DNA of 63,996 nt, filler included, from Asterionella formosa (lineage: Eukaryota): the NCBI GenBank assembly GCA_002256025.1. It is 14 parts of 14 records of this genome, joined end to end, with 100 filler letters (N's around TTAATTAATTAA, not from the genome) between each part and the next. Parts side by side here need not be neighbours in the genome. Positions count along the whole stretch, not along the records: positions 53,600 to 55,001 come from NKIB01002601.1; 13 more parts are not named here. One strand, written 5' to 3'. The notes below the pieces were generated by a model, which searched no databases, had not been told where the DNA came from, and worked only from the letters and a program-made list of their open reading frames with translations. Of the stretch, positions 4,197 through 63,996 are shown piece by piece. The translations under genes and the position numbers were made by a program. Positions within the stretch are counted from its first letter, which is position 1. Every line of letters begins with the position of its first letter.

Positions 4197-4612
4197 TATG
4201 TACTGCCATGACCCACTGAAATCACTTTTTAGCTGTTTTATAATCATCGTACCCTCTGATGAAATCGTTCAATGAAAATTTTAACATGACAGCTTGATTG
4301 ATCAAGGTTGTGATGGTCTCCATCGAAAAATTGGCACTTACAGCCGACGGCATGTGTGTCTAATTGTTGGAATTTAGTGACTGATATTGGTACTATGTAC
4401 ATGAAAATGGGCTCATCAGTTTCTTTTATTATCATCCTATGCTCCCCAGTGCTGGCTACCTTTCCTTTGTATATGGTCATAGCCCTTGTTCCCATGTATA
4501 CAGCTTCCGTTCTTTTTTATATATCCACATAACTTGCCTGCCGTATTGTTCGTCTCCTTAGCTTCGCGTATGCGCATCATTCTTCATTTTGTGCAAACAT
4601 ATATTTCCTTCT

Positions 4613-16126: not shown

Positions 16127-16539
16127 NNNNNNNNNNNNNNNNNNNNNNNNNNNNNNNNNNNNNNNNNNNNNNNNNNNNNNNNNNNNNNNNNNNNNNNNNN
16201 NNNNNNNNNNNNNNNNNNNNNNNNNNNNNNNNNNNNNNNNNNNNNNNNNNNNNNNNNNNNNNNNNNNNNNNNNNNNNNNNNNNNNNNNNNNNNNNNNNNN
16301 NNNNNNNNNNNNNNNNNNNNNNNNNNNNNNNNNNNNNNNNNNNNNNNNNNNNNNNNNNNNNNNNNNNNNNNNNNNNNNNNNNNNNNNNNNNNNNNNNNNN
16401 NNNNNNNNNNNNNNNNNNNNNNNNNNNNNNNNNNNNNNNNNNNNNNNNNNNNNNNNNNNNNNNNNNNNNNNNNNNNNNNNNNNNNNNNNNNNNNNNNNNN
16501 NNNNNNNNNNNNNNNNNNNNNNNNNNNNNNNNNNNNNNN
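16127..16539. other. Scaffold gap (N run)
   Basis: Run of N; it truncates the 3' end of the adjacent CDS. Confidence 0.99.
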
Positions 16540-45964: not shown

Positions 45965-46495
45965 NNNNNNNNNNNNNNNNNNNNNNNNNNNNNNNNNNNN
46001 NNNNNNNNTTAATTAATTAANNNNNNNNNNNNNNNNNNNNNNNNNNNNNNNNNNNNNNNNNNNNAAGGATAAGAAGCATCTTGACGTCTAATTGCACGCA
46101 ACTTTGGTCAATGCGGTGGAGGTGCTCTACATGATGCGCTAATACTACCGGCACACTACTAGCTCGTACCATGTCGGAATAATAAGACATAGACAATGCT
46201 AGAAACATGCAATGACTTGATGGACTTACCGGTAATAAAAATGTAATGACTTTGAATACCGGTACCAAGTATATATTATTTGCGCATGAACTATTGGACA
46301 TTGGGAAGCAACCCTTGTACACTGGTAGCTGGTACCAGGTCCCGGGTTTATTGGCATGCACATATTCGGTCTGCACTTTTCGAATTCACGATTGCCCCCC
46401 ATCATAAAAGGTGCTAAGGGAGCCAAACCCGGCAAACCCCAGCATGACGAAAATTGATTTCAATCAAGTTGTCACAAACTGAAAGCGCAAGTACC

Positions 46496-47469
46496 ATGGA
46501 TCCTTATGAAGCATATTCGTACAATTATGCCAGGCGAAGCGACGGTAGTTCCTCGAGCTCGTCAGATTCAAGTCGCAGCAGCCCTTCTTTGTCGGATCAA
46601 ACGTCGAGTTCGCCAGCGTCCCAGAGTGAAACTCCTTCTTCTAGCAACAACAGTAACCGTAGCAGCAGTGAATCAGAAACCAGCTCTGGAAGTGAAGCTG
46701 CAGTCATGTCATTAGTTGAAGAAGAAAGCACTGAATCGGATTTTTCGGAGTCTCAGTCACAAGACACTTCGGAAAGCGAATCGCAAAGTGAATCGGGGTC
46801 AGAATCATCGAGCCCTTCCGAGTCATACTCTGAGCTTGGCGAAGGTGATGAAAAAATTCGCGCTCAAGCAGAGAGAAATAAACCACAAGTTGTACCTGCT
46901 ATTGTTACCAGTCGGTCAGCTTCAACGTCCCAACGACAGACCCAGTCTAGCTCCACGTTGTCCAACAGTGCAATGGATAGTCAATCAGACAATTCTTCAG
47001 AAATTATGGTGGAAAGTGAGTCAGAATCTTCCAGTTTACTCGAGTCTTCTAGTGATGAAAGCACGATGGAAAGTGAGTTAGAACCTTCTAGTACATCTGA
47101 GTCTGCAAGCGCTGAAGGATCGGAAAGCCCTCCACAAAGTGGTGCTCGAATGGGAGGCACACATGTACGTAGCAAAACGAGAAATCTGCCCGCCATCTTG
47201 GACCGCCCTCCTAAAGCTAGTGATAACAATCAGGCCAAGCGAAGTTCGCAGCAGCTATTTCTAGCAAGCAATCAAGGCCCATTAGTTGGTGTTCCTCTCC
47301 GCCGAGCTCAATCTCTCACAACGACTGTATCGTCTCTTAGTGGTTCACAGTTAACGAAGCGCATTTACGACCACAATACTGCTGAAGAAGATTTGTTTAC
47401 GATAGCGCCAATCAACATAGGTACTCGGCTTAAACGCAAGGGTCAAGAATATGATATACTGCATGAGCT
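46496..47469 (+). CDS. Ser/Glu-rich low-complexity protein, N-terminal fragment
   Basis: Open frame from MDPYEAY to the contig end; no domain recognised. Confidence 0.6.
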
Positions 47470-47569
47470 NNNNNNNNNNNNNNNNNNNNNNNNNNNNNNN
47501 NNNNNNNNNNNNNTTAATTAATTAANNNNNNNNNNNNNNNNNNNNNNNNNNNNNNNNNNNNNNNNNNNN

Positions 47570-48974
47570 GTAAAACCGGATGGGTTTGAGTATTACGAAA
47601 TGATTCTTGTATATGTTGATGACATTCTTTGCATTTCAGCGCAGCCTCGAGCGACTATGAGCGGGATACAGTCGACCTTCAGATTGAAGGATGATAAAGT
47701 CGAGAAGCCGGAAAATTATCTGGGAGCCCAGGTAATGCAGAAAATAGTCGGCGGAGTTGAGTGTTGGGCCATGACTTCCGAGCAGTATGTCCAGGCAGCC
47801 ATCGCCAACGTATAGTTCAAACTCGACGAGTCGGGTCAGCGGCTTCCAACGAGGTGCACTACCCCATTGCAGGGGAATTATAGACCGGAACTGGATATTT
47901 CTGCCGAACTCAAGATTGAAGGCGTGAGATACTACCAGGAATTGATCGGCGTGCTCCGCTGGGCAGTGGAGCTTGGACGAATAGACATTGCTATGGAAGT
48001 TTCTATGTTATCTACTCACCTAGCGTTGCCGAGGAGCGGACACTTACAACAGGTATATCACATTTTCGGATATTTGAAAGCGAAACCCAAGAGGACGTTG
48101 ATCTTTGATCCGACACACCCCGATATAAACGAGTCCAGGTTTGTTAAATGCGATTGGCACGACTTTTACAGGGGAGCGCAGGAGTCTATTCCAGGGGACG
48201 CACCCAAGCCCAGAGGTAACGTTGTAACTACTCACTGTTTTGTGGATGCGGATCATGCGGGGAATCGGGTGACGAGGCGCTTGCAGACCGGGATTCTGAT
48301 TTTTGTGAATCGTGCTCCAATTATATGGTACAGTAATCGACAGAGCACTGTCAAGACATCGATGTTTGGTAGCGAATTTGTGGCACTGAAAATCTCGGTT
48401 GCACTGATCGAGGCATTGAGGTATAAGCTGAGACTGTTTGGAATCCCAATTGATGGACCGACTAACGTTTTCTGTGACAACGAGGTGGTGATGAATAGAC
48501 ATTGAAAAAGAAACATAATGCGATAGCGTATCACAGAGCGATAGAAGCTGTGGCGGCAGGGACGATTCGGGTAACGAAGGAAGATGGAATTTGGCTGATG
48601 TGCTCACGAAGCCATTATCCCAAATTACACGAGAGTATTTGTGCGACAAGTTCATGTATTGATGGCTGTTGGATCACAGTGGGTCGAAGATTGAAGCCAA
48701 GGTTCATCGCGATGTCACAACCTATGACACCGGTTACCTCCTGGGCACGCAATGACGTGTGGCACCGAATCCAGGTCGATGTTTAGTTGTATATTTGTTT
48801 GGTTTCATCTCCCATGTATTCGAGGGGACTGAACGAATATTGCAGTGCAGTGTGGGCGCGTGGATGAACGTACCGTGTCATACGGTACAGGGGACTAACT
48901 AGCCGTTAGAGTGTTTTAGCGATAGTACAGCATGCAAGCTTGGAGCAGCGAATGCGCTAGAACGGCGTAGGTTT
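47570..48974 (+). mobile_element. CoDi-like copia RT C-terminus, RNase H, polypurine tract and start of 3' LTR (degenerate)
   Basis: LVYVDD, YQELIGVLRWAVELGRID, FVDADHAG, SEFVA, FCDN, KKHNAIAYH; stop at 47813-15 and later frameshifts; GAGGGGA at 48822-28 followed by TG at 48830. Confidence 0.92.
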
Positions 48975-49074
48975 NNNNNNNNNNNNNNNNNNNNNNNNNN
49001 NNNNNNNNNNNNNNNNNNTTAATTAATTAANNNNNNNNNNNNNNNNNNNNNNNNNNNNNNNNNNNNNNNNNNNN

Positions 49075-50185
49075 TGAATGCTGCAACTCGATCGAAAATG
49101 GAAGTTCGTTCAAAAGCTACTTGGTCACTGCATTTTCCCGGTGCAATTACACCAAAATAAATAAATCTTGAGTCAGCATCACAAACAGCCTGGACATTGA
49201 TTCCATAAGTCATGTAGTGACCGGAAAAAAATGAACCAGGGTTGTTGCCACTTTCAACTATAGTCGGGCGGTTGATGGTGGCTAGGAAGCCGTCAATAGC
49301 ACCAACACATCCTCTCATCATGCCCTCTGAGCTTTTGCATTCAAAGCTGGAAGCCAATTTGATAAATTCTTCTTTTTCTTTTGGAAAAACAATTTCGAGT
49401 TCTCCACAGTTTAGTACAGCATCAATGAACAAATCACGACATCGATAAAGTGAAGCAATGCTACAACCGTAGGCATGACGAATGTCGATGTAACTGCCAC
49501 CAGCCAGCCATCGCAAACCAATGGCTACCACAATTTCGGGAATTATGGGCTCAGAAGTGCCACATTTGGAATAATTCCCTGCAATCTGAATTTCCAGCAT
49601 GGAGGTGAGTTTTTTGAATGCTCTGTGTGACATTCTGTATGTCTTCTCGAAAGCAATCTCGTGATTGAGTTTCTCGACATGTGATTGCCAGGAGATTCTT
49701 TCGTGGTGCCACTTGTGCCTTCGTTGTCGTCGTCGTTCAGATGACTGAAGCTGCCGTTTACAGCGTCGCCTTTGTCGTTTGGATGAGTGTTCTTTTTCCT
49801 CTGCTTCCTTAGCTAAATGACAGAGGAAGAAGAAATCAAGATCACTACTGTCATCGTCATTATCATCAAGTAAATCAAATGGCGACGACATGATTCATGC
49901 AAATGTGTGTTTTTAATATTATATTTAGTTTCCCGGTAATTATATTTTGTTGTTGCTTGATATCAAGACCATCATTATATTCCGGAGGGATATACACATG
50001 ATCTTCGCCAGCCAGTTGCCGTTGAAGATTCATTTTACTCCATGATACAATGTGATCACAAATTAGTGATACAGTGACACTTTTGGAATGAATGAAATTC
50101 AGTTCAAATCGAGTTACCGTTGCTGATACATTTTCAAAAAAATTCAAATTCCGTGATACACGAAAAAAAATGATAAGAACGACCC
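49075..50185 (-). mobile_element. PIF/Harbinger DNA transposon 5' part; transposase ORF 49891 to contig end
   Basis: YRMS..F..L, LRWLAGGSY, GCVGAIDG, NVQAVCD (HARBI1/DDE_Tnp_4-like); candidate terminus TTA|GGGTCGTTC at 50185 on the minus strand. Confidence 0.88.
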
Positions 50186-50579
50186 TAAGTTTGAAATCAA
50201 ATACGCTGCATACCGGTATTGATGTGGTATTCCTGTGTCGCTGTGGTTTCCTTGGCTGCTGTGTACCCTGGTACCAGGTACCTATCTTACCGGGACATAT
50301 GCATTATGATGGGAAAAAGCAGAGCACAAAAAGAATACTGGTATGTACGGTACATACAGTTTACAAAACTGAATCGTTGGCTGTGCTTGGCACTGCACAC
50401 CCATTTGAAGACAACACCATGAATATGGATTACCATACTGTACTTACTACGTATGTACTAGTACCTACCTGGTTGATGCNNNNNNNNNNNNNNNNNNNNN
50501 NNNNNNNNNNNNNNNNNNNNNNNTTAATTAATTAANNNNNNNNNNNNNNNNNNNNNNNNNNNNNNNNNNNNNNNNNNNN

Positions 50580-51996
50580 GTAATATTCCATCGTGTGGAT
50601 GCAAGAACAATTGTGATTCAAATGAAGACTGCCTGGATGTGTCAACTTTGTCAGCACCATTGTGTTCATTGTTTATCATCATTTCATTCCTCATTCCATT
50701 CAACTGGTCCTTAATTCCCTCTAGGTTTGATCCAACAACCTTCTGAATTAACTGAACCATTCGAGACTCCGACAATACACCTCCAAATGTCCGATCATCA
50801 AGCATTTTTTCGAATTCCTTTAGCAGTGATGGTCCAAGTGCCTGTAGTTCGCCTCTCATGCTCCTGATGGCTGCAAGATGGGCAACATGAGGAGGTATAC
50901 CTGTTAACTTCACAGCAAATGAGGATTCTTCCTCACATGAAAGATATCGAACAAAAATATGTTCATCAAGTGCCAAAAACTCCCTTGATGTGTAGATAGC
51001 AGTCTTACTCACTGCCGACTTGTCAGTACAAAGTTGTTGGAGATGTTTTCTGTGGTGCAGGATACATGCTACTAGTCCAACACGAAGAAATGGAAGCACC
51101 ATACTAACTTGCCAGTGAATCACATCACCAAACAGGGAACGTAAAGCCAGAATCACTTTTCCATCAAGCTCTGTTTGCTTTACTCGTGCATTTGCATCAT
51201 TGGGGTTTCGAATCCAAAAGTTTGGTTCTGAAACCGCAAAACAAGCAGATAGCACCACTGGCAATCCAGCCAATATTCGACCAACATGCATAGTGGTCAC
51301 CTGCCTTTTCATAAAGCATATAGACATCTCACACAGTGCCTAATGTCCAACCACCTCGATTGTTGATTGCTACACTTGATGGACTTGCTGTAGAGCCACT
51401 CGATGCATATGTTGTTGCACCCTTCCTGATGCTGTGAGTACCAATATCCTCCACCTCATATCCATCTAGATCGCCTTCATGTCCATGTAACAACCTCTTG
51501 ATAATTTTTCTGAATCGATCTTCCTGCTCTGCACCAGGAAACAATAGACCATCTGTATCTTGTAGAATTTTCCGGAAAGCATGTCATGTACTCAAACAAT
51601 GCAGTTATTGGGCACAATGCAAAATCTTCAGGGTTGGTGTAGCAGTGTCAGGGCTTGAAATTCTTGGAGCCATCTTGATCATTTTTTGTATGAGAAAATC
51701 GAATCCCCACAGCATCTTGACTCCAAACCAAATGCTTGATACAGACACCATCAGTACTACTATCAACACAGCACATCAAATTCCAAGTTAGACATAAAAA
51801 TGCACGTGCAAAAACAGCTGATGGAGAGCCATCTTCAATCAACCATATGCTTATTTTTCGGTACAGGTTGATTGTCAATTCACGTTTTCCTTCCTCAAGG
51901 CTACCCATCCCATCTTGTTTTGCCTTACTTGCAATTCGTTTGACGCCAGCAATGAGATCTTTCAGCTCATCATCAAAGTCGTCTGTAACCTTCATC
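50580..51996 (-). mobile_element. Crypton-like tyrosine recombinase transposon fragment, copy 1 (frameshifted)
   Basis: TWNLMC, HTKNDQ, LFPG, GTHSIRKGA (HxxR), RGGW...VY; stops and frameshifts; catalytic Arg codon changed to Cys. Confidence 0.85.
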
Positions 51997-52096
51997 NNNN
52001 NNNNNNNNNNNNNNNNNNNNNNNNNNNNNNNNNNNNNNNNTTAATTAATTAANNNNNNNNNNNNNNNNNNNNNNNNNNNNNNNNNNNNNNNNNNNN

Positions 52097-53499
52097 GGAG
52101 CTCATATGTGCTAAATTTGATGTGTCTTGATATGGTGACAAGGAAGGGCATACTGTTGACAAACATGATGTCACCTGCAAGTGTCACAACACGGTACTTG
52201 TCGATAATCCCGGCGGGGATGGTGGTAGAGCTGGTCCTCACTGGCACTGAACCACGGTGCACTGTTTTCCCTTTTAGCGAGCCCACATCGGGCCCGAAGA
52301 TTTGTTCTGCCGCTATAATGTCATCGCGTGTGATTGGGCAGTTTGGGAACAGGTTTTTCTCGACAATCTTGATGAATGTGCGGGTACTAGGACGCCCAAT
52401 AACCTTCTGTATCTTTCGGGCTAGCACAGCTTGTGAGTAGTCACGTTGGGAGTAGCTAGTACGGTTATCGTCTACCGTATTGATAAGGGTGACTCCAGAG
52501 CGATCCTTTGTATCCATGTAGTATAGGCCTTTCATTGATTCTTTGAACACTCTATAAGTTCCGTCATGTTTGTGAACATGGAATGCATTGCCCTGGCTGC
52601 TATCAAATGTTACCCTGTATCCATGCTCCTTGACACGTGCGAGGGACAGGATGTTCGCGATTCCCTTTGGGTTGTACCATACTGTTCCATATCCATGAAG
52701 GTCTCCTATGAGTTGGGTGCTGACTATACCAGCGTTGCAGTGGATATCCATCTTACTGGTGTGGACACGGATGTTGCGTAGGAGTTCCGCGTTATGGAAC
52801 ACATCAACTGTTGACTGATTGTCTAATAGTATCCATGTACGTGGTAGCCTTCCATCGGGCCCAATTTTCAGACTCACTCCTCCTTGATTTAGAAATTGGA
52901 AGTGTACATTTTCCTCGAATTCTCCCTCATGCACACCATCCATTAGTAGTGTGGTGGCGGACTGGGTCGATGTCGTTTCAGTTGTGGGAGGAGTACTGGT
53001 GGTCAAATTCCTAGGGACAGGTGCAGGCTCCTCACATTCCGTAGCGTAGTGCCCCTTCTTTTGGCATCGGTGGCACATGATGTGTGCCTTTCCTTTTGGC
53101 CTTTTCCGCGCGCCATTCTCGCTGTTGTTGTTCAGTGTCGTTCCATCTTCGTCATTCACATTGTGAAAGGATACGCCGTCACCAACTGCCCCTACTTCGC
53201 GTAGCCCATGCCGTGGATCCTGCTTCCAGTTTGTTAGTAGATGGTAGGCTGCACTGACGGTCTCGGGGTAGTTGTTTCGTCCTTGTAGGAAGTCGTTCTC
53301 CATATTTTCAACCAGACGGCCGTAGCGTACACGATCAGCTCCTACTAGGAATGCTACTGCTGTGAATCGCTCGAGTACCTCTGCCTTGAGTTCACTTAAC
53401 TGTTGATCATTCATGTTCTCCTTGCTAGTTGTCTTTTCATTCAGAATCATGTTCTCGATTCCTGAGTCGCCAGCAATGGTCCCTCCGCTGTGATCAATA
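52097..53499 (-). mobile_element. CoDi-like copia gag-protease-integrase N-part, copy 1 (open frame)
   Basis: LVENMENDF..G.NNYP, zinc knuckle CHRCQKKGHYATEC, protease WILLDNQST, ANILSL, CPITRDDI..A..IFGPD..SLKGKT, DIMFVN. Confidence 0.9.
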
Positions 53500-53599
53500 N
53501 NNNNNNNNNNNNNNNNNNNNNNNNNNNNNNNNNNNNNNNNNNNTTAATTAATTAANNNNNNNNNNNNNNNNNNNNNNNNNNNNNNNNNNNNNNNNNNNN

Positions 53600-54562
53600 C
53601 AACTTGGCAGTGTACAGCTTCCACCAGTTGTAACCATCGGGGATTTCATCTGCCTTCAGTTTCTTCTCCGTAACAATTTTCATGTACTGTGTAAGTTTAC
53701 ACATACAGTCAGTGAACGAATTATGAAACTCACGGAGAGATCCTCTTTCAGTAAGACAGAGTTTGTCCAACACCTTGTTGTACTTTTTGATCCAGTGAAT
53801 GACCAATTCTTCCCCTTCGTAGTATCCACGGAGTTTGTGCCAAGCTTCATGTCCATCATGCTCCTCATTGGTGGTGAGTGCCAATCTTGCAACTGCTGTA
53901 GTTGAGATGGAAGCAACCAACATGCCCCAGACAAGGCTGTTTTCATCAGGGTTCCTATGGGCATAGTTTCTGGATTTGATCACCTTGATGAGGTTCGAGG
54001 TTGCAAAATGCCCGATACTCTGCTGGCTCCATTCCAACCAATCTCCGTGGTCGCCGGAAAATTGTCTGAGCTGCTGGACAGGTGTAGTGAAGACACGTTG
54101 GACTGATTTGTTCCCGGGCCCCCAGTGCACAAGAGGTGCTGGGGTGGGCCAGTTATGAGCTACATGGCTGTAGCGAGCTGCCACTTCACGTTCCATCTCG
54201 TAGAAGTCCTCCGGGATCTCCTCAATTTCCAAGAGCTGCCACTTAGCTAAGACAGTAAGCCATTCGAGAGCAGGTTGGACTGAATTGATAAATGCTGGGC
54301 TTTGGATTTGGTGAACGTTAAGGACGTTGCGCAGGTTGTCCATCCCAGTCACTTTCATGGTGGAAAGGATTTTCCGCATTGCAACAGCATCAGTATACCC
54401 ATCTTCATTGGGGTCATCCGAATGCCTAAGATCGACAAGGAGAAGATCGAGGATCATCTGATTTAGCTCGGGAGATATGCTTTCAACATTATTCTGCACG
54501 GCCACAATGGCATCGACCGCACGGTTGTGAATAGGTAGATCCATATTTGGGCTGGTACTCAT
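53600..54562 (-). mobile_element. Copia-type gag-like ORF, N-terminal part
   Basis: FSGDHGDWLEW and DGHEAWHKLRGYYEG resemble copia gag motifs; frame open to the contig end. Confidence 0.7.
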
Positions 54563-55001
54563 CTGTGTGTTCGAGATAACGTGTTAGTCAGTTTTATAAA
54601 CAAAGGTGATCATCGGGTCTTTATTCTTTTTGTTATTGTAATTTTCCTTTCAGAATTTACGTATGAACGAACGAACAAACGAACGAAGAACGAACGAACG
54701 ATCGAATATATAATGGAAGATACGATAGGGTTCGTGGATTTGGACCCCCTCATCCCCGAGGGGTTGATTGTCATGTCGTAAACAAGACATCCTCCCTTGA
54801 ATATTGTACATGCGTTACTTATGCGGGTCACACTTGGATATCCCTGGCCGGGATCCTCCACAGCCACCTCCACACATTGAATCCCCTTAGGAATAGAGAG
54901 CCAGAAATGAACTTTGCTACTTTAGGCCACTTCCGTATGGGTCTGATGGTCCATTGCTGATGAAATCCAGCTTTCCGTTCGCTCCGGGTGCATTACTACC
55001 G
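54563..55001 (-). ncRNA. Structured 5' leader upstream of gag, homologous to 63842-63992
   Basis: 107-nt ungapped match to the last contig, several hairpins, a (TTCG)n tract, and GACTAAC...CAG directly before the ATG. Confidence 0.55.
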
Positions 55002-55101
55002 NNNNNNNNNNNNNNNNNNNNNNNNNNNNNNNNNNNNNNNNNNNNTTAATTAATTAANNNNNNNNNNNNNNNNNNNNNNNNNNNNNNNNNNNNNNNNNNN
55101 N

Positions 55102-56504
55102 GGAGCTCATATGTGCTAAATTTGATGTGTCTTGATATGGTGACAAGGAAGGGCATACTGTTGACAAACATGATGTCACCTGCAAGTGTCACAACACGGT
55201 ACTTGTCGATAATCCCGGCGGGGATGGTAGTAGAGCTGGTCCTCACTGGCACTGAACTACGGTTCACTGTTTTCCCTTTTAGCGAGCCCACATCGGGCCC
55301 GAAGATTTGTTCTGCCGCTATAATGTCATCGCGTGTGATTGGGCAGTTTGGGAAGAGGTTGTTCTCGACAATCTTGATGAATGTGCGGGTACTAGGATGC
55401 CCAATAATCTTCTGTATCTTTCGGGCTAGCACAGCTTGTGAGTAGTCACGTTGGGAGTAGCTAGTACGGTTATCGTCTACCATATTGATAAGGGTGACTC
55501 CAGAGCGATCCTTTGTATCCATGTAGTATAGGCCTTTCATTGATTCTTTGAACACTCTATAAGTTCCGTCAGGTTTGTGAACATGTAATGCATTGCCCTG
55601 GCTGCTATCAAATGTTACCCTGTATCCATGCTCCTTGACACGTGCGAGGGACAGGATGTTCGCGATTCCCTTTGGGTTGTACCATACTGTTCCATATCCA
55701 TGAAGGTCTCCTATGAGTTGGGTGCTGACTATACCAGCGTTGCAGTGGATATCCATCTTACTGGTGTGGACACGGATGTTGCGTAGGAGTTCCGCGTTAT
55801 GGAACACATCAACTGTTGACTGATTGTCTAATAGTATCCATGTACGTGGTAGCCTTCCATCGGGCCCAATTTTCAGACTCACTCCTCCTTGATTTAGAAA
55901 TTGGAAGTGTACATTTTCCTCGAATTCTCCCTCATGCACACCATCCATTAGTAGTGTGGTGGCGGACTGGGTTGATGTCGTTTCAGCTGTGGGAGGAGTA
56001 CTGGTGGTCAAATTCCTAGGGACAGGTGCAGGCTCCTCACATTCCGTAGCGTAGTGCCCCTTCTTTTGGCATCGGTGGCACATGATGTGTGCCTTTCCTT
56101 TTGGCCTTTTCCGCGCGCCATTCTCGCTGTTGTTGTTCAGTGTCGTTCCATCTTTGTCATTCACATTGTGAAAGGATACGCCGTCACCAACTGCCCCTAC
56201 TTCGTGTAGCCCATGCCGTGGATCCTGCTTCCAGTTTGTTAGTAGATGGTAGGCTGCACTGACGGTCTCGGGATAGTTGTTTCGTCCTTGTAGGAAGTCG
56301 TTCTCCATATTATCAACCAGACGGCCGTAGCGTACACGATCAGCTCCTACTAGGAATGCTACTGCTGTGAATCGCTTGAGTACCTCTGCCTTGAGTTCAC
56401 TTAACTGTTGATCATTCATGTTCTCCTTGCTAGTTGTCTTTTCATTCAGAATCATGTTCTCGATTCCTGAGTCGCCAGCAATGGTCCCTCCGCTGTGATC
56501 AATA
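55102..56504 (-). mobile_element. CoDi-like copia gag-protease-integrase N-part, copy 2
   Basis: Same length and breakpoints as 52097-53499, about 17 substitutions by eye; open frame. Confidence 0.9.
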
Positions 56505-56604
56505 NNNNNNNNNNNNNNNNNNNNNNNNNNNNNNNNNNNNNNNNNNNNTTAATTAATTAANNNNNNNNNNNNNNNNNNNNNNNNNNNNNNNNNNNNNNNN
56601 NNNN

Positions 56605-58007
56605 GTAATATTCCATCGTGTGGATGCAAGAACAATTGTGATTCAAATGAAGACTGCCTGGATGTGTCAACTTTGTCAGCACCATTGTGTTCATTGTTTA
56701 TCATCATTTCATTCCTCATTCCATTCAACTGTTCCTTAATTCCCTCTAGGTTTGATCCAACAACCTTCTGAATTAACTGAACCATTCGAGACTCCGACAA
56801 TACACCTCCAAATGTCCGATCATCAAGCATTTTTTCAAATTCCTTTAGCAGTGATGGTCCAAGTGCCTGTAGGTCGCCTCTCATGCTCCTGATGGCTTCA
56901 AGATAGGCAACATGAGGAGGTATACCTGTTAACTTCACAGCAAATGAGGATTCTTCCTCACATGAAAGATATCGAACAACAATACTATGTTCATCAAGTG
57001 CCAAAAACTCCCTTGATGTGTAGATAGCAGTCTTACTCACTGCCGACTTGTCAGTATGAAGTTGTTGGAGATGTTTTCTGTGGTGCAGGATACATGCTAG
57101 TCCAACACAAAGAAATGGAAGCACCATAACTTGCCGGTGAATCACATCACCAAACAGGGAACGTAAAGCCAGAATCACTTTTCCATCAAGCTCTGTTTGC
57201 TTTACTCGTGCATTTGCATCATTGGGGTTTCGAATCCAAAAGTTTGGTTCTGAAACCGCAAAACGAGCAGATAGCACTGGCAATCCAGCCAATATTCGAC
57301 CAACATAGTGGTCACCTGCCCTTTCATAAAGCATATAGACATCTCGCACAGTGCCTAATGTCCAACCACCTCGATTGTTGATTGCTACACTTGATGGACT
57401 TGCTGTAGAGCCACTCAATGCAAATGTTGTTGCACCCTTCCTGATGCTGTGAGTACCAATATCCTCCACCTCATATCCATCTAGATCGCCTTCATGTCCA
57501 TGTAACAACCTCTTGATAATTTTTCTGAATCAATCTTCCTGCTCTGGACCAGGAAACAATAGACCATCTGTATCTTGTAGAATTTCCGGAAAGCATGTCA
57601 TGTACTCAAACAATGCAGTTATTGGGCACAATGCAAAATCTTCAGGGCTGGTGTAGCAGTGTCGGGGCTTGAAATTCTTGGAGCCATCTTGATCATTTTT
57701 TGTATGAGAAAATCGAATCCCCACAGCATCTTGACTCCAAACCAAATGCTTGATACAGACACCATCAGTACTATCAACACGGCACATCAAATTCCAAGTT
57801 AGACATAAAAATGCACGTACAAAAACAGCTGATGGAGAGCCATCTTCAATCAACCATATGCTTATTTTTCGGTACAGGTCGATTGTCAATTCACGTTTTC
57901 CTTCCTCAAGGCTACCCATCCCATCTTGTTTTGCCTTACTTGCAATTCGTTTGACGCCAGCAATGAGATCTTTCAGCTCATCATCAAAGTCGTCTGTAAC
58001 CTTCATC
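56605..58007 (-). mobile_element. Crypton-like tyrosine recombinase transposon fragment, copy 2 (one premature stop)
   Basis: TWNLMCR, HTKND, PRHCY, CPITAL, GTHSIRKG, RGGW...RDVY in one frame, broken only by CGA>TGA at 57530-32. Confidence 0.88.
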
Positions 58008-58942
58008 NNNNNNNNNNNNNNNNNNNNNNNNNNNNNNNNNNNNNNNNNNNNTTAATTAATTAANNNNNNNNNNNNNNNNNNNNNNNNNNNNNNNNNNNNN
58101 NNNNNNNGGCACAGTGTGAATTGCAATCACGTTTTGTTGGTTTGCTGATCAATGCCAGTACAGACGAAGCATTTTGCTTCTTGGTGCTGAAAGGAAAATT
58201 CAGATTGCAACAAAAATATTTGGTTTTCAATCCAGTGTCGCAGGAAATTTCAGAGAAGGAACGATATTCGTCATTCTACTGATTTTGTCGACATTGGTGG
58301 GAAACCACTTATCAAAACAAGTGTGAGGGAAGAAAGTTCAGTTTCAAATGGTCTCACTGATCAATGGACTGATGATATTGATTTACTCGGTTATTATAAG
58401 GAAATCTACACTGGACTTTCACAAAAGAATCGATCTGAATATGGAAGTAATCCTAGTGGTTTTGCTACTTCCACAACAAATATCAGCTACCCACACTCAT
58501 ACTTCTCATTTCCCAATGTAAGTGAAGAGGATATGCATCAATATGTTGAACCACTTCAACCAAATGTTCCTGAGAAGAATATTGATTACAATGAAAGCAT
58601 TAATCAACGGGACATTGATGACAACGTTGATTTTGAATGGATCTAATAGAATCCAATGCATGCTTAGTTAGTACCGTAGTTACATAATAAAAATAGTTCT
58701 TGTAAGACTTCTACAATGCACAAACCATATCATAGATGTTAGGAAAACATTGATGTTACTCTATACTACTAGTAGTGGCGCCTGTACTGTATGTAGCGGT
58801 ATACCTCCATTTTTACTACTATGGTGGAGTGATAATTTCACAACTCTGTTTTGTCCAGCACAGCATGATCGGAGTGATGCTAAATTTATTATTAATAATT
58901 CATTTTCATGATATCCTGTTCATATCCTGAATTTGTCATCAT

Positions 58943-59506
58943 TTGAAATTTGCAATGTCTTTGCGGACATTGTATTGGTGTTATCTGTGTAACTACAAAT
59001 TTCGGAAGAACAAATCCCCATCTGAGTCTAACAATCGAAATTGTAGCAACAGTGTTTCCTATGCATATGGTCACTGTCAACATAGCATGCAAGAACATCG
59101 AGTTCCTGGAATACAGAATGAAACTATGTATTGCGGTAGTGCATCGAATCATTCAAGGAAAGAAGTTGATGGCAGTGTAACTGCTGCAGCATTTAGGGAG
59201 AGTAGACAACAAGAAGAGATTATGTGTGCTTTCCTTGAATCAAGTAGCCACAATCATCCATTTCATGAAAACAGCGACGATTCAGTTGATAACAATATTC
59301 AGTCACAACTAAACGAACAATTGAGACTAAAAACTCTCCAAGGATTGAATTCAGAGACGATGCAATATTCAGATTTCCAAGGTCACACCGGCTTTGTCCC
59401 TGAAAATGCAATGGAATTGCCCCTTCCTCCTCAATTTCAACTTCCAAGTAAACATTCCCTAAACATGCGCGCATCCAATCGAATTAGAACTCATGTTATT
59501 CCTTAA
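58943..59506 (+). other. Unassigned ORF with CxxC...H pattern, possibly transposon-derived
   Basis: YWCYLCNYKF...H; lies on a repeat-class 1.4 kb contig; no family recognised. Confidence 0.25.
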
Positions 59507-59610
59507 CGAGNNNNNNNNNNNNNNNNNNNNNNNNNNNNNNNNNNNNNNNNNNNNTTAATTAATTAANNNNNNNNNNNNNNNNNNNNNNNNNNNNNNNNNN
59601 NNNNNNNNNN

Positions 59611-61013
59611 TCAAAACCCTGGGGAAGGTTCATGTAAATAACAACATCAAGATCGGCTTGAGGAAAAGCTAAGACAAAATCAACCTGACGGGTATGGAGA
59701 TTTTCAATGGAAGCAATGATAAGAAGAAGGCGAACAGTGGCCCACTGGACAACAGGAGAATAGGTATCCCAGTAGTTCAATTCGAAAACTTGGCGATGGC
59801 CACCAGCACAGAGACGAGCTTTATGTTTGACAAGGGAGCCATCAGGGCGAATCTTTCGTTTCATGGACCAGACAGCGGGGATAGGGGTGTGGTGTTTTGG
59901 CATGGTGGAGCGAGGTACTTTAAGCCAATGACCACGAGCCTCATGTTCTCGGACTTCATGATCGGCTGCCCGTAAGAAATCAATAGCGTCGGGTTCAGCA
60001 AGAGCCTGGGTGAAGGTGAGAGACTCAGAGTTGGGAGTAGACACAAGGAAGGTAAAAGGGTGTAGAAAATTGATGGTACTGTCAAGATTATCGTAGAGAC
60101 GTTCAACAGAAGTAAGAGCAAGGGAGGCACAATTGAGTGGATAGGAAAGGAAAGCAGCCAGACCAAAGAAACGTCGAGTGGAAGTGTGTTCTTGTTGACG
60201 TAAAGAAGGGAGCCGGATGCGACCATAGCGAGAAGTAGAAGGAGGATCCACAGGAGGAGCAAAATGAGCTCCCTCGGAGGTGGTGATGGGAGCGCCAACA
60301 GTAGGAGGAGCAGGAGGAGCGGCGCCATCAAAAGGGGCGGGATGAGCTCCCTTGGGAGGGACGAGGAAAGCTCCCTCGGAAGCGGCGATTTGAGCATCAA
60401 CAGCAGGAGGAGCTGCTCCCTTGGGAGGGATGGTGATGGGATCCAAAAGGGGAGCAGGGGGATCGGCGGGGACCGCCAGAAAAGGTACCGGAAAAGGAGA
60501 TAATTGGGAAGGATTAGGTTTGGTAAGAAAATAGCGAGGACCAATATCGACAATAGGCTGCCATGCAATACGTTGTGTAGAGTCGAAGGTAGTAGAAGGG
60601 GGACCAAGTGTAGGGTCGAAGAGTTCATCGGGATCAACAAGACGGACATGACGTTGGGCGTAAAGGTCAGCCCAATGATTAGGGACTTCTTGACGGGTCA
60701 GCGATTCCACAAGAGAAAAATCGTCATCGAAAACGACGTGGAAAGGGGTAGTGACATGACCTGTAGCGAGATTAAGAACCAAAGGGACACTAGATGCATG
60801 GTACTTGGAACTCCCAAGGTATACACCCACCCAGCAGCGTTGTTCCCAGCGAGGTATACTATTGCCGGAGGAGTGCAGGCGATCATCGAGGACAACGACA
60901 GGGCAGCCAAATGGATGGTAGTGGGAAAATGAAGGCAACACATCAGAGAGTGAAAGGCGCTGGAGGTAGCACGGACCATCAGAACGTGGTTGAAGATTAC
61001 AGAGATCATTAGC
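59611..61013 (-). mobile_element. CoDi-like copia integrase C-terminus, Pro-rich linker and RT N-terminus
   Basis: HPFGCPV, GVYLG.S..HASSV, TGHV...FHVVFDDDF; RT WSMKRK, KARLCAGG, DTYSPVV.W, DFVLAFPQA; IN-before-RT order. Confidence 0.93.
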
Positions 61014-61327
61014 NNNNNNNNNNNNNNNNNNNNNNNNNNNNNNNNNNNNNNNNNNNNTTAATTAATTAANNNNNNNNNNNNNNNNNNNNNNNNNNNNNNN
61101 NNNNNNNNNNNNNTTGAATTCAAAGTGAATTATCTAACTAGAAGTAGTAGTATTTGTTGAATATATGAGCTTATTAATTAATCCTTATGTACAACTCGTT
61201 TCCTAAACTGACATCAAAGTATACAATGGGTGTTAGTCGAATTCTCTCATTTTTGAATTCCGATATATTTGATATATCCCTTACCCTATATACATCTTGT
61301 ACGATGCGGAGGATTGCTCACCTGGCA

Positions 61328-62515
61328 CCACTTAAAAACTGTAAGCCACCGCTACGGCGACTTTTGAACTGTAAGCCACCGCTAAACGGAGTAAACGCAC
61401 GGTTTGAACTTAGTTTACAAGATACGCTATTTATTGTCACGAACGAGTTGTTCAGATTTATATAGCGAGTAAATACTTCCGTACTTGTATTGTTGCATTG
61501 TGTACATTGTTAATTAGGTATTATCGCTAAAAGGTTGCTGTCGACGTGAAATTGCGAAAATTGGATATTTTCACGTTTACTCGATTGAGCAAGCATCACA
61601 TTTTATATACGTATTCAGCTATGATAATATTCCTCCGCTAGAAAACTAATTTAGTATCCTCTAAAATTTATTTAATAGGGCTACGACCTCATTGCGCTTT
61701 CGCTCGTGCGCCATAATAACGAGATAATTCAGTAATGGAAAACGTCAAATAGGAATTCCTGGCGCGCCCGACTTATGAGTACAAAAATTAAATGCAAACA
61801 CACAACAATCACCCATCACCCATCACAACACCAACACCATGACCTCGAAAGCGCCTCGACAAGGCAATGCCCAACTCTTTGATTGCTGGTACTGAAACTA
61901 TGGCAAAGGTGAACAATTGGAGAGAAACAAATTGCATTCCATTCCAAATCAACAAAAAGCCTGAACTTGGGAAATCCTATTGGAAAGGATTTATGAAAAG
62001 AAATGCACAGTTAGTTACAGCAAAGAAGGGAGTAAAGTTTGAGAGCAAACGTGCAGATTGGTGTACATACCAGTCCTTCTTATCAATGTATAAAGAAGTC
62101 TATAAAGAAATGGTGGCTGGAGGAGTTGCAAGACAAAACCCAAGCAAACAATGGTACTCAAAAGAAGGGTTAGTAGTTGAGGAGCAGGAAGCATTTGGGT
62201 TAGCAAGTGAATATGAGCTAATCAGACCTGACCGACTCCTCTTTGTGGACGAAGTTGGTTCCAATACATCCCAAACAAAAGATGGCAACGTTGGTGGCGA
62301 AAAGTTTCTTTGCATTGCAGGTGGCCGTCCTCAAATCCGGGCCTCGACCAAAGATGCACACTTTACTGTCCTAGGATTCACTGCAGCTAATGGTCAACCA
62401 ATCATGTGCGCAATTATTTTTGCCGCAAAAGCCCTGGAAGACGAATGGGTGCTTGGCCTAGATCCGTTTGCTGCTTGGGAAGGAGAAGATGAAAACATAC
62501 ATGGCAACAGCGGAA
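61328..62515 (+). mobile_element. pogo/Tigger-like (IS630-Tc1-mariner) DNA transposon 5' part; transposase fragment 61867 to contig end
   Basis: YWKGFMKRN (CENP-B-type HTH end), LFVDEVG, HFTVLGFTAANG.P.MCAIIF (DDE_1-like); terminus CCACTTAAAAACTG resembles the 29428 TIR; duplicated AACTGTAAGCCACCGCTA subterminal repeat. Confidence 0.8.
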
Positions 62516-62795
62516 NNNNNNNNNNNNNNNNNNNNNNNNNNNNNNNNNNNNNNNNNNNNTTAATTAATTAANNNNNNNNNNNNNNNNNNNNNNNNNNNNN
62601 NNNNNNNNNNNNNNNTATCTTAATTAATAACGGTACCTGGTACCAGTAGTCTACCATGTACCTGGTAAATTGTATGTACATACCGGTTGGAGGGTAGGAG
62701 TACCAAGTACCAGGTACCAGGTACCAGGTACGAAGTACGAGGTACGTAGTCTACCCTTAAGTCTACTGGATGGTACCGGTACCATGTACCTGGTA

Positions 62796-62943
62796 CCTGT
62801 GCAAGTTGCGGTAATTTTGCCGAAACTAAAGATTTATCATACCGGTAGCTATGTAGTTTTATCCCAGATGAAATTGTTTGTTTACCGGTACCTGGTACCT
62901 GGTACCTGGTACCTGGTAAGCAAAATGACCGCAACTTGCTTGG
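62796..62943. mobile_element. Second copy of the 96-nt MITE, expanded by TA-anchored insertions, within a TACC(W)GG-rich cluster (62632-63066)
   Basis: Inverted repeat GCAAGTTGCGGTAATTTTGC (62801-20) / GCAAAATGACCGCAACTTGC (62920-39); TA flanks; aligns to 31744-31839. Confidence 0.82.
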
Positions 62944-63409
62944 TATGCATGCACTGTAGACAAATACAGGTAAATATGCTTCTTGTTCGCGTCGAGTGTC
63001 GAAGGGCCATGTCCCGGTATGTATGATACCAGTACCAGGTACCTGGTACCAGTAGTCTACCAGGTAGTGTGTCGTTCGTATGTATGAGGTGGTAAGAGAG
63101 ATGATGGTGAAGAAAGGTTTTAGAGTCAGGTTCCACAGTACGTATTTTGTACATTGTATACCTAGGGCGGTCGTTTTGAGAAAAGGTTCATGAAGGACAT
63201 TGTCAGTACATGCGAGATGTGTAGAAGTACCATCTTAAAGTTATGGATACAATAGACAATAGTCCAGCCAAATGTTTCGTCGTATAATATTGTATTACAT
63301 TTGTAGTGATTTGCAGTACGGGCCTGCCTACTGTTGTGAAGACTGAAACTGAAACTGAAACTGAAACCAAAACCGCATGCTAACTCTAGCATTCGTGCTC
63401 ACTCGTAAA

Positions 63410-63996
63410 ACGGTGGGTTATAGGGAGTATCGTGCTGCATTTTCTTGCAGTGTGCCGCATACCTTGCCGTAGTGAAAACTCGGCAGAAAGACCGCGTGGT
63501 TGCCTGTAGAGTCACAAGAACAACGGCGGTTGCAACAGCACAGCTGTCAGGTACACATAGTACATTGGCATGTAGCTCCTACGGGCAAGCGATGAAAGTA
63601 GTGATTCCAACTACTGTAATATACTCACTGCCTGATCAAGGACGGGGTCACACAAAACCTCGTGGGGAGTAATCCCCCTTTGTGTGATAGACTGGGACTA
63701 CCTCCAGGTTTAGGTCTATCGGGTACGAAGCAATATGGAGGGACTGCATCTATACGTACGTTGTGATGTGGGTAGCAGGAGTCGTACGGCGAATGCGATG
63801 CTGCAGGAGCATAATAAACCTGCACGGATCCATGCACCAACCGGGAGTAACGCACCCGGAGGGTACGGGAAGCTATTTTCCAGCAGCAATGGACCACCAG
63901 ACCCTTATGGAAGAGGCCTAGAGTAATCTAGATCCTGACTGGCTCTCTGTGTAGGGAACGAACCTATAACCCGGTTAGTTCCCGAGGGGATTGCCT
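63410..63996 (+). ncRNA. Candidate large structured RNA, probably a retrotransposon 5' leader
   Basis: Dense hairpins with GAAA, UACG, GUAA (x2) and GGAA tetraloops on the + strand; 3' part homologous to the leader of the gag at 54562. Confidence 0.6.

What the first reader, a model, noticed from the sequence alone, without database searches (positions are those of the whole stretch)
54895..55001. Conserved leader block with covariation and a candidate conserved uORF
Seen: minus 55001-54895 aligns without gaps to plus 63842-63948 (about 84/107 identical by hand). Hairpin CCA-UA-C-GGAA-G-UGG versus CCU-UA-U-GGAA-G-AGG shows an A-U>U-A swap and C-G>U-G under a GNRA loop; YCAG/CUGG pairing is kept; the 63k copy then carries a ~30-nt insert that forms its own hairpin before the shared UUCC..AGGGGAUU. 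The same block reads GSNAPGANGKLDFISNGPSDPYGSGLK* versus GSNAPGGYGKLFSSSNGPPDPYGRGLE* (end of ORF 63735-63926), with 7 of 16 changes synonymous including TAG/TAA, and identity falls right after the stop. Inference: dual constraint (structure plus small peptide) is possible, but two sequences cannot separate the two.
Basis: partly seen in the sequence, partly recalled or inferred. Interest (0 to 1): 0.72.

Follow-up and report, generated by a model that had tools for sequence, protein, structure and literature searches.

The report
Retrotransposon LTR end plus primer site
The "conserved leader block" is the last stretch of the long terminal repeat and the tRNA primer-binding site of two related copia-type retrotransposon copies, so its similarity reflects shared descent of a mobile element rather than a regulated cellular leader.

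Summary
In detail: 55001-54895(-) and 63842-63948(+) align without gaps at 84/107.

**What it is.** Both copies lie in short unplaced contigs chained by N/TTAATTAATTAA linkers. They belong to two subfamilies of one Ty1/copia-type LTR retrotransposon (RVT_2 pol, gag-like ORF).

**Boundaries.** Contigs of three public runs break at one place and continue differently. That puts the LTR end 9 nt before the block's end, so the block is 98 nt of LTR 3' end plus the first 9 nt of the primer-binding site (TGGCTCTCT). The "30-nt insert" extends that site.

**Conservation.** The block (78.5%) is no better conserved than the rest of the leader (81%) or gag.

**Coding.** The signal is not significant: omega 0.42, p 0.18, against 0.145 in gag. 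Frame-breaking variants exist.

**Structure.** Neither folding energy nor covariation exceeds chance.

**Extra result.** Three protein variants, counted on 15 contigs, join the LTR directly to gag at exact GT..AG bounds. This suggests the block lies in a leader intron; no RNA read confirms it.

The parts
54904..55001 (-). 54k copy (subfamily A): last 98 nt of the LTR, probably the U5 side. Its 5' side is cut by the contig edge and linker at 55002.
   Evidence: Aligns to L002 4739-4836. Contigs of runs X1, X7 and X19 leave the reference after L002 4836 with different continuations, which marks the LTR end (table 7).
54895..54903 (-). 54k copy: primer-binding site TGGCTCTCT, directly after the LTR end.
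   Evidence: 9/9 identical between subfamilies, while the preceding 13 nt are 6/13. It starts with TGG. It occurs only at the two copies in the window.
54917..54919 (-).
   Evidence: P0160 (109 aa) ends with the same 27 residues.
54563..54894 (-). Rest of the 5' leader. It is the 3' part of the proposed leader intron, with branch-point-like CTGACTAAC at 54591-54583 and AG at 54564-54563.
   Evidence: The stretch GAATAAAG..CTGACTAAC..ACACAG is near-invariant in the window copy, L001, L003 and L005. P0001 residues 54-75 match from 54562 on.
53600..54544 (-). gag-like ORF, open to the contig end. A subfamily-A-only upstream ATG lies at 54562.
   Evidence: omega 0.145. The full-length relative L001 300-1769 has a weak Retrotran_gag_2 match (E 0.0084, below cut-off).
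63546..63939 (+). 63k copy (subfamily B): whole 5' LTR, 394 nt. Ends are GTCAGG..CCTGAC. TATA-like TAATATAC lies at 63617 and AATAAA at 63813.
   Evidence: 96% identity to L001-L003 starts at 63546. One contig of X7 has a loose end before L002 4442, and there are loose ends behind 4836.
63735..63926 (+). Small ORF of 63 codons, starting 21 nt before the proposed 5' splice site and ending in the block.
   Evidence: P0159 is the same ORF in L001-type copies.
63756..63761 (+). Proposed 5' splice site GTACGT inside the LTR.
   Evidence: P0001 and P0160 share 53 residues (51 identical) and part exactly after the codon that precedes this site.
63842..63948 (+). The block in the 63k copy: LTR positions 297-394 plus 9 nt of primer-binding site.
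63940..63964 (+). Primer-binding site with extension (25 nt). Its reverse complement ends ..CCA and contains GGTTCG..CC, like a tRNA T-arm plus acceptor end.
   Evidence: Read directly from the sequence. It is the first part of the 29-nt 'insert'. It pairs with a downstream near-copy in the MFE fold.
55002..55101 (.). Assembly linker N44-TTAATTAATTAA-N44. What lies beyond it is an unrelated contig.

Best explanation
The block is the 3'-terminal 98 nt of the long terminal repeat, most likely the U5 side, plus the first 9 nt of the tRNA primer-binding site (PBS) of a Ty1/copia-type LTR retrotransposon. It is seen here in two subfamilies about 20% apart.

**Shown**
- The 54k contig aligns along its whole length to the LTR, leader and gag of a 6.7 kb element assembled from metagenome data. 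That element has a gag-like ORF and an RVT_2 pol ORF.
- The 63k copy is 96% identical to the same element, starting from its LTR start.
- The LTR end lies 9 nt before the end of the block.
- The next bases, TGGCTCTCT, are the only perfectly conserved run there.

**Inferred**
- In unspliced genomic RNA the PBS pairs with the 3' end of a host tRNA to prime minus-strand DNA synthesis. In subfamily B it extends to 25 nt that mirror a tRNA acceptor and T-arm.
- The LTR terminus is copied into strong-stop DNA and serves as the integrase end.
- The similarity of the two copies is common descent at about the element's background rate. It is not extra constraint from a peptide or a special hairpin.

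**Inferred with less certainty (about 0.6)**
- The block lies inside a leader intron. The 5' splice site would be in the LTR (GTACGT at 63756). The 3' splice site would be just before gag (..ACACAG| at 54563).
- Removing this intron would give a gag-pol mRNA without the PBS and without 12 of the 15 upstream ATGs counted in L002.
For: **Context**
- The window tail is a chain of ~1.4 kb contigs joined by linkers.

**Element identity**
- The downstream ORF has 10 relatives.
- 5 metagenome loci were fetched. L001-L003 are permuted contigs of one 6.5-6.7 kb unit with 123-nt end overlaps, i.e. collapsed LTRs.
- L001 carries ORF1 of 490 aa and ORF2 of 1394 aa.
- ORF2 matches RVT_2 at 4.8e-17. ORF1 matches Retrotran_gag_2 weakly, E 0.0084, below cut-off.
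- 118 of the 120 listed pol relatives carry PF07727.

**Homology of the window copies**
- 63546-63996 is 96.0% identical to the unit.
- 55001-54895 is 79.4%, 54877-54817 is 80.3%, and 54815-53600 is 88.6% (alignment).

**LTR bounds (table 7)**
- Loose ends behind L002 4836 appear in X1 (1 contig), X7 (1) and X19 (2), with different continuations.
- One contig of X7 has a loose end before 4442.
- The terminal inverted repeat is GTCAGG/CCTGAC.

**PBS**
- It is 9/9 conserved, against 6/13 just before it.
- The motif is found only at the two copies.

**No excess conservation**
- The leader after the block is 272/335 identical.
- gag has dS 0.341 and dN 0.049.

**Intron**
- P0001, P0013 and P0016 (440 aa; 3+8+4 contigs) read ..MEGLHFY|MSTSPNMDL...
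- Residues 33-53 match L001 6282-6344, the codons just before GTACGT (19/21). Residues 54-75 match window 54562-54497 at 100%.
- The unspliced counterpart P0160 shares the first 53 residues and then reads on into the block.
- 387-aa forms on 10 contigs start at MSTSPN.
- The 3' intron end, with CTGACTAAC, is near-invariant in 4 of 4 sequences.
- There are 15 ATGs before gag in L002, 12 of them inside the proposed intron.

**Expression**
- 19 of the 20 runs that hold at least half of the sampled words are recorded as RNA.
Against: **tRNA and PBS**
- No tRNA gene could be compared. The window has none and no genome is held, so the identity of the primer tRNA is untested.
- Rfam found nothing in the 32-nt PBS stretch.
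- The PBS of subfamily A is only 9 nt before the copies diverge.

**LTR features**
- The LTR ends are not the canonical TG..CA as read (GTCAGG..CCTGAC). The flanks seen begin or end with T and A, so the true ends may be one base further out.
- The U3/R/U5 bounds are guessed only from TATA-like and AATAAA motifs.

**Intron**
- No contig in the 4 runs laid joins L002 ~4652 to ~5280 (table 5).
- The spliced form is known only from predicted proteins of subfamily A, whose DNA or RNA origin I could not see.
- In subfamily B the same junction would be out of frame with gag (read).

**Small ORF**
- It is open in three lineages, with three one-residue in-frame indels in P0163.
- Amino-acid identity between subfamilies A and B is 59/77.
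- Some coding constraint is therefore not excluded.
Confidence: 0.85

Rival explanations
1. The small ORF that starts in the LTR (MEGLH..) and ends in the block encodes a functional peptide or protein part. In unspliced RNA it would be a regulatory uORF. In spliced RNA it would be an LTR-encoded N-terminal extension of Gag.
For: - The ORF is open in subfamily A (109 codons, P0160), subfamily B (63 codons from ATG, P0159) and a third lineage (P0163), which differs by three one-residue indels that keep the frame.
- The stop is at the same column in subfamilies A and B.
- Omega is 0.42 in this frame, against 2.2 and 1.7 in the other two frames.
- There are no indels between A and B over the 77 shared codons.
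- In subfamily A the spliced form puts 53 upstream codons in frame with gag.
Against: - Omega is not distinguishable from 1 (Fisher p 0.18). Codon-position counts of 4/4/8 are reached by 31% of random placements.
- dN of 0.163 is 3.3 times that of gag. It is close to the Jukes-Cantor distance I work out by hand from the 272/335 leader identity (about 0.22).
- Many replacements are radical: S/R, F/C, I/S, N/Y, D/V, S/P.
- P0161 has a frame-shifting deletion inside the block.
- A 5-nt insertion behind L002 4815 stands in contigs of X7 and X19.
- Subfamily B has stops just upstream of the ORF, and its junction is out of frame.
- It is one of 15 upstream ATGs.
- There is no Pfam family.
- The representative search found only copies of this element, 3 of 4 hits; the fourth is a low-complexity repeat.
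- Relatives found by protein search are biased towards copies that kept the frame.
Confidence: 0.12
2. The block carries a conserved RNA structure, namely the reader's GNRA-type hairpin or a U5-PBS stem. It would act in packaging, dimerisation or primer placement and be kept by compensatory change.
For: - The hairpin at block positions 62-75 is kept in both subfamilies with one double-sided change.
- RNAalifold pairs positions 26-37 with 96-107, i.e. U5 with the PBS.
- Such U5-PBS pairings are known in retroviruses (established knowledge, recalled).
- In the 63k copy the PBS extension pairs with a downstream near-copy.
Against: - MFE z-scores are +1.47 (186 of 200 shuffles fold as well) and -0.57 (53 of 200).
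- 96.8% of column shuffles show at least one compensated 3-bp stem. The data show 5 against a mean of 3.6, and 29.8% of shuffles reach 5.
- The covariation term is +0.79.
- There is no Rfam match.
- Only two independent sequence types exist.
- Variants replace or delete part of the block. In an X1 contig, 4737-4801 is replaced by 70 other letters. P0161 carries a deletion.
Confidence: 0.15
3. The block is a leader element of an ordinary cellular gene family, not of a mobile element.
For: The downstream ORF has no Pfam family in the window piece.
Against: - Full-length relatives carry an RVT_2 pol, a collapsed LTR, a PBS and a purine-rich tract before the LTR.
- Both copies sit in unplaced repeat contigs.
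Confidence: 0.02

Closest known systems
Ty1/copia-type LTR retrotransposons, including the diatom CoDi lineages (Maumus et al. 2009, PMC2806351; I ran only a term search of the main text)
   Same: - An RVT_2 reverse transcriptase and a gag-like ORF with a weak copia-gag match.
- A ~395-nt LTR with short terminal inverted repeats.
- A TGG-initiated PBS next to the 5' LTR, and a purine-rich tract before the 3' LTR.
- The only organism-named pol relative among the 120 listed is from a diatom, at 38% identity.
   Different: - gag and pol are two separate ORFs.
- The LTR ends read GT..AC rather than TG..CA.
- By recall, the PBS is not the initiator-Met type common in copia elements.
- Membership in a named CoDi group was not tested.
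- That paper's main text has no occurrence of 'tRNA', 'intron', 'splic' or 'primer binding'. Its one 'PBS' is the buffer.
U5-PBS region of retroviruses and of yeast Ty elements with extended tRNA complementarity (recalled knowledge)
   Same: - The PBS lies directly 3' of U5.
- In subfamily B there is further complementarity that mirrors the tRNA T-arm.
- A possible U5-PBS pairing exists.
   Different: - No sequence relation.
- The primer tRNA is unidentified.
- Subfamily A lacks the extension.
Alternative splicing of plant Ty1/copia elements: EVD shGAG (Oberlin et al. 2017, PMC5580714, abstract read) and BARE (Chang et al. 2013, PMC3735527, abstract read)
   Same: Separate RNA forms for translation and for replication. 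The spliced RNA cannot be the replicated one.
   Different: - There the intron is centred on the protease region and yields a gag-only RNA.
- Here the proposed intron lies wholly in the leader, removes the PBS and keeps gag-pol.
- It rests on predicted proteins only.
Retroviral leaders with the major splice donor in R, upstream of the PBS (foamy viruses, HTLV-1), and leaders with several uORFs (Rous sarcoma virus), all recalled and not checked here
   Same: - A splice donor inside the LTR, 5' of the PBS.
- Many upstream ATGs in the unspliced leader.
   Different: - In those viruses the acceptor lies far downstream, before pol or env genes.
- Here it lies 1-19 nt before the gag start.

Membership tests
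Ty1/copia-type LTR retrotransposon | Reverse transcriptase of the RVT_2 (copia) type | tested here: met
   L001 ORF2 matches PF07727 at E 4.8e-17, 62.8 bits against a cut-off of 31.6. 118 of the 120 listed relatives carry it.
Ty1/copia-type LTR retrotransposon | Integrase encoded upstream of reverse transcriptase | tested here: inconclusive
   Only a sub-threshold integrase-core match (rva_4, E 0.095, residues 350-438) lies before RVT_2 at 902-1101.
Ty1/copia-type LTR retrotransposon | Long terminal repeats at both ends | tested here: met
   The evidence is indirect.
- Three contigs are circular permutations with 123-nt end overlaps, i.e. a collapsed repeat.
- Contigs break at L002 4442 and 4836 into different flanks.
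- The window copy diverges from the unit exactly at 63546.
- No single genomic copy with both LTRs was seen.
Ty1/copia-type LTR retrotransposon | PBS complementary to a tRNA 3' end, next to the 5' LTR | tested here: inconclusive
   - Position, TGG start, 9/9 conservation and a T-arm-like extension are met.
- No host tRNA was available to test complementarity.
- Rfam was silent on 32 nt.
Ty1/copia-type LTR retrotransposon | LTR termini TG..CA | tested here: inconclusive
   The ends read GTCAGG..CCTGAC. The flanks are T (2 of 2) and A (3 of 3 loose-end consensus lines), so TG..CA is possible one base out.
Conserved regulatory uORF / small protein | Purifying selection in the frame | tested here: not met
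   - Omega 0.42 from 6 synonymous and 9 non-synonymous changes, Fisher p 0.18.
- Codon positions 4/4/8, chi-square p 0.37.
- The gag control has omega 0.145.
Conserved regulatory uORF / small protein | Frame kept in all copies | tested here: not met
   - P0161 shifts frame inside the block.
- A 5-nt insertion variant is seen in 2 of 4 runs.
- The frame is kept in P0159, P0160 and P0163.
Structured RNA element | Folding or covariation above chance, or a match to a described family | tested here: not met
   - z-scores +1.47 and -0.57.
- The shuffle control reaches the observed count in 29.8% of trials.
- Covariation term +0.79.
- 0 Rfam matches at gathering score.
Spliceosomal intron in the leader | GT..AG bounds and a branch-point-like motif | tested here: met
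   - GTACGT at 63756.
- ..ACACAG ending at 54563.
- CTGACTAAC 20-28 nt upstream of the AG, invariant in 4 of 4 sequences.
Spliceosomal intron in the leader | RNA molecules that lack the interval while the DNA has it | tested here: inconclusive
   - Three protein variants, counted on 15 contigs, bridge the junction.
- An unspliced counterpart exists.
- No joint appears in the contigs of 4 runs.
- The RNA or DNA origin of the bridging contigs is not visible to me.

The most novel reading that the evidence does not exclude
This copia-type element of a freshwater or estuarine protist, probably a diatom, has an intron confined to its 5' leader. The donor lies in the LTR upstream of the primer-binding site, and the acceptor lies at the gag start.

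- Splicing would yield a translation-only gag-pol mRNA. It would lack the U5 end, the PBS, any packaging sequences in the leader and 12 upstream ATGs.
- The unspliced RNA would remain the replication template.
- In subfamily A the splice also fuses a 53-codon LTR-borne ORF in frame to Gag.
Probability: 0.5. Interest if true: 0.45.

Novelty: new member of a known kind. Interest (0 to 1): 0.27.

Why it matters
The finding itself is ordinary: it is the U5/PBS junction of a retrotransposon. The result removes a false lead, since there is no evidence for a dual-constraint leader.

It also shows that the tail of this window is a chain of unplaced repeat contigs. Neighbouring sequence across a linker therefore must not be read as context.

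The by-product could matter modestly for mobile-element biology. If the leader intron is real, it would be a simple way for an LTR element to separate the RNA that is translated from the RNA that is packaged and reverse-transcribed.

Two features make it worth a look:
- It occurs in a lineage where retrotransposon gene expression has hardly been studied.
- By public records, the element is present in RNA libraries of many lake and estuary samples.

Tried and rejected
- **Rfam.** The whole window at gathering score gave 0 matches. Both contigs at E up to 10 gave only chance-level hits, none on the block. The 32-nt PBS stretch gave 0 matches.
- **tRNA genes.** None in the window.
- **Whole genome.** Not held.
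- **Earlier notes of this scan.** Nothing by place, by sequence or by words.
- **Relatives of gag in viral contigs.** 119 pattern matches, none confirmed.
- **Spliced joint in public runs.** No contig joins L002 ~4652 to ~5280 in X1, X4, X7 or X19. Contigs drop rare forms, so this says nothing either way.
- **Representative search with P0160.** It gave 4 hits. P0162 (2503 aa, 29 stretches) is the translation of a low-complexity tandem repeat and was set aside.
- **PBS candidates elsewhere in the leader.** I considered ..CATGGACAAC.. and rejected it, because its TGG is not conserved in the 54k copy.
- **Literature.**
  - Search 40 (diatom, Copia, retrotransposon, primer binding site), search 41 (LTR retrotransposon, spliced, leader intron, gag) and one search (retrotransposon, splice donor, primer binding site, upstream of gag, Copia) listed no paper on a leader-confined intron in a copia-type element. 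'Leader intron' had 0 occurrences in all 15 papers listed by one search.
  - Search 53 led to the CoDi paper, whose main text lacks the relevant terms.
  - I read listings and abstracts only, so I do not claim the idea is absent from print. No supplements were opened.

Full report
**1. The observation**

The two stretches exist as described. blastn of the window against itself gives one ungapped 107-nt match between 55001-54895(-) and 63842-63948(+). It has 78.5% identity (84/107), E 4e-20, and there is no third copy. The translations, the stops at the same column and the tally of 7 silent changes out of 16 are right.

One point changes the reading from the start. From 45965 on, the window is a chain of ~1.4 kb contigs joined by N44-TTAATTAATTAA-N44 linkers. 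The block's 5' edge at 55001 is such a contig end. The sequence beyond 55002 is therefore not its neighbour. The block is 107 nt long only because the contig stops there.

**2. What the copies belong to**

- On the minus strand, the 54k contig continues into an ORF that stays open to the contig end. It has no Pfam family.
- The ORF has 10 relatives in the protein collection.
- Five metagenome loci encode it.
- L001, L002 and L003 come from three records. They are circular permutations of one 6.5-6.7 kb unit, 99.7-99.8% identical over the long shared parts. Each has a 123-nt end overlap, the usual result when an assembler collapses two LTRs.
- L001 has a 490-aa ORF1 and a 1394-aa ORF2.
- ORF2 matches RVT_2 at 4.8e-17. 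ORF1 matches the copia-type gag family weakly, below cut-off. A sub-threshold integrase-core match lies upstream of RVT_2.
- Of 120 listed pol relatives, 118 carry RVT_2. The only one named with an organism is from a diatom, at 38% identity.
- The 63k copy is 96.0% identical to this unit from 63546 to the window end.
- The 54k contig aligns to the unit along its whole length: block 79.4%, next leader piece 80.3%, remaining leader plus gag 88.6%.

So the two copies are members of two subfamilies of one Ty1/copia-type element. I call them A (54k) and B (63k, L001-L003).

**3. Where the LTR ends**

I laid contigs of three RNA-library runs and one run not recorded as RNA (probably DNA) on L002:4300-6300.

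- Contigs of X1 (1), X7 (1) and X19 (2) follow the reference up to 4836 and then go on with different sequences.
- One contig of X7 joins at 4442 from an unrelated sequence.
- The window's 63k copy also departs from the unit exactly at the base that matches 4442 (63546).

The LTR is therefore L002 4442-4836, which is window 63546-63939. Its ends are the inverted repeat GTCAGG..CCTGAC. The flanks seen end in T and start with A, so canonical TG..CA ends one base further out cannot be excluded.

In block coordinates the LTR ends at position 98. Positions 99-107 read TGGCTCTCT.

- This run is 9/9 identical between subfamilies, while the 13 nt before it are 6/13.
- It starts with TGG, as primer-binding sites do.
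- It occurs nowhere else in the window.

In subfamily B the run continues to 25 nt (63940-63964). The reverse complement of that stretch ends in ..CCA and contains GGTTCG..CC, the look of a tRNA T-arm and acceptor end (read).

I could not identify the tRNA. There is none in the window, no genome is held, and Rfam is silent on 32 nt. From recall only, an acceptor end of this type, with A at position 72 and G at 73, is typical of eukaryotic tRNA-Asp. That is a lead, not a test.

**4. Is the block specially conserved?**

No.

- The non-coding leader between the block and gag is 272/335 = 81.2% identical in aligned columns, against 78.5% for the block.
- gag has dS 0.341, dN 0.049 and omega 0.145, with differences by codon position of 28/12/51.
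- Fisher's test gives p 0.18. The codon-position counts 4/4/8 give chi-square p 0.37. 31% of random placements of 16 changes put 8 or more in one phase.
- The block thus diverges at about the element's background rate.

**5. The small ORF in other copies**

A search with the 63-aa peptide found 3 proteins.

- P0159 is the same ORF in L001-type copies.
- P0160 (109 aa) is the subfamily-A form. It ends with exactly the 27 residues of the 54k block.
- P0161 is a B-like copy that shifts to another frame inside the block. I read this as a deletion of about 40 nt.

Other observations bear on the frame:

- A 5-nt insertion behind L002 4815, near the stop, stands in contigs of X7 and X19.
- In one X1 contig, 4737-4801 is replaced by 70 other letters.
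- A search of 1.84 billion representatives with P0160 gave 4 hits: P0159, P0161, a spurious repeat protein, and P0163.
- P0163 is a third lineage. Its ORF differs by three one-residue indels that keep the frame, and it then runs straight into the gag N-terminus.

This last point counts for the ORF. However, protein searches can only find copies that kept a frame, so it is biased.

Amino-acid identity between subfamilies A and B is 59/77, with many radical replacements. The ORF is one of 15 ATG-started frames before gag in L002. I put a functional peptide at about 0.12.

**6. Structure**

- MFE z-scores are +1.47 for 54870-55001(-), where 186 of 200 shuffles fold at least as well, and -0.57 for 63842-63990(+), where 53 of 200 do.
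- Column shuffles give a mean of 3.6 such stems. 96.8% of shuffles have at least one, and 29.8% reach five.
- RNAalifold on three sequences gives a covariation term of +0.79.
- There is no Rfam family.

Some U5-PBS pairing is likely in any retroelement. The evidence here does not show it.

**7. An unexpected by-product: a probable leader intron**

- P0001, P0013 and P0016 are three sequence variants of 440 aa, counted on 3, 8 and 4 contigs. They carry 53 residues in front of the gag start and read ..SIGYVAIMEGLHFY|MSTSPNMDL...
- Residues 33-53 match the LTR of L001 at 6282-6344 (19/21). Those are the codons directly before GTACGT, which is window 63756.
- Residues 54-75 match window 54562-54497 at 100%, directly after ..ACACAG.
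- P0160 has the same first 53 residues (two differences) and then reads on into the LTR and the block.
- 387-aa forms on 10 contigs start at MSTSPN. The unspliced DNA has a stop just upstream.
- A branch-point-like CTGACTAAC lies 20-28 nt before the AG. The last ~65 nt of the interval are the best conserved part of the leader in 4 of 4 sequences.

The interval would be about 627 nt in L002, roughly 4653-5279. It contains the block, the PBS and 12 of the 15 upstream ATGs.

I infer that a spliced RNA serves translation and the unspliced RNA serves replication.

Results against this reading:
- No contig of the four runs shows the joint.
- I could not see whether the bridging contigs are RNA or DNA.
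- In subfamily B the same joint would be out of frame with gag.

Support for expression in general: of the 20 runs holding at least half the sampled words of the B leader, 19 are recorded as RNA libraries from lake, estuary and freshwater samples. DNA carry-over cannot be excluded.

Copia splicing is known in plants, but there it is centred on the protease region (PMC5580714 and PMC3735527, abstracts read).

**8. Verdict**

The finding is the LTR end plus primer-binding site of a copia-type retrotransposon in two subfamilies. The special-constraint reading is not supported. The leader intron is the only part that deserves follow-up.

Noticed in passing
window 45965-63996: The tail of the window is a chain of 13 pieces of about 1.4 kb (the last running off the window end) joined by N44-TTAATTAATTAA-N44 linkers. 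Adjacency across linkers is artificial. A separate 413-N gap lies at 16127-16539.
   Followed up: partly
window 50480-52040 vs 56505-58051; 52041-53543 vs 55046-56548: Pairs of chained contigs are near-duplicates at 97-100% identity. One pair encodes a 467-aa piece with a weak zinc-knuckle match, from another repeat family.
   Followed up: partly
window 49075-49894 (-): ORF piece with a DDE_Tnp_4 transposase domain (E 4.6e-9, above cut-off), i.e. a DNA transposon fragment.
   Followed up: partly
window 59611-61013 (-): Piece of a different copia-type pol: an SH3-like integrase end followed by RVT_2 (E 4.1e-18). It does not match the element studied here.
   Followed up: partly
window 62620-63250: GGTACC-rich short repeats lie upstream of the 63k LTR (families D9 and D13). 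A similar sequence follows a break at L002 4736 in two X19 contigs (table 7). That break is 3 nt before the block's start.
   Followed up: no
P0163 (124 aa; no locus): In a third lineage the LTR-borne ORF runs in frame, after ..GSSAPTGY, directly into the gag N-terminus. This skips the rest of U5, the PBS and the leader. It could be a deletion copy or a second splice form; the DNA could not be fetched.
   Followed up: partly
window 54665-54705 (-); L002 5150-5180: A (TCGT/TCGTT)n microsatellite lies in the leader. It varies between copies and runs: a 4-nt insertion behind 5154 and a 13-nt deletion at 5187.
   Followed up: no
L003 vs L001/L002: L003-type copies lack about 59 gag codons (alignment columns 146-204), giving 429-aa forms P0003-P0007. 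This is an in-frame internal deletion variant of gag, present in several records.
   Followed up: no
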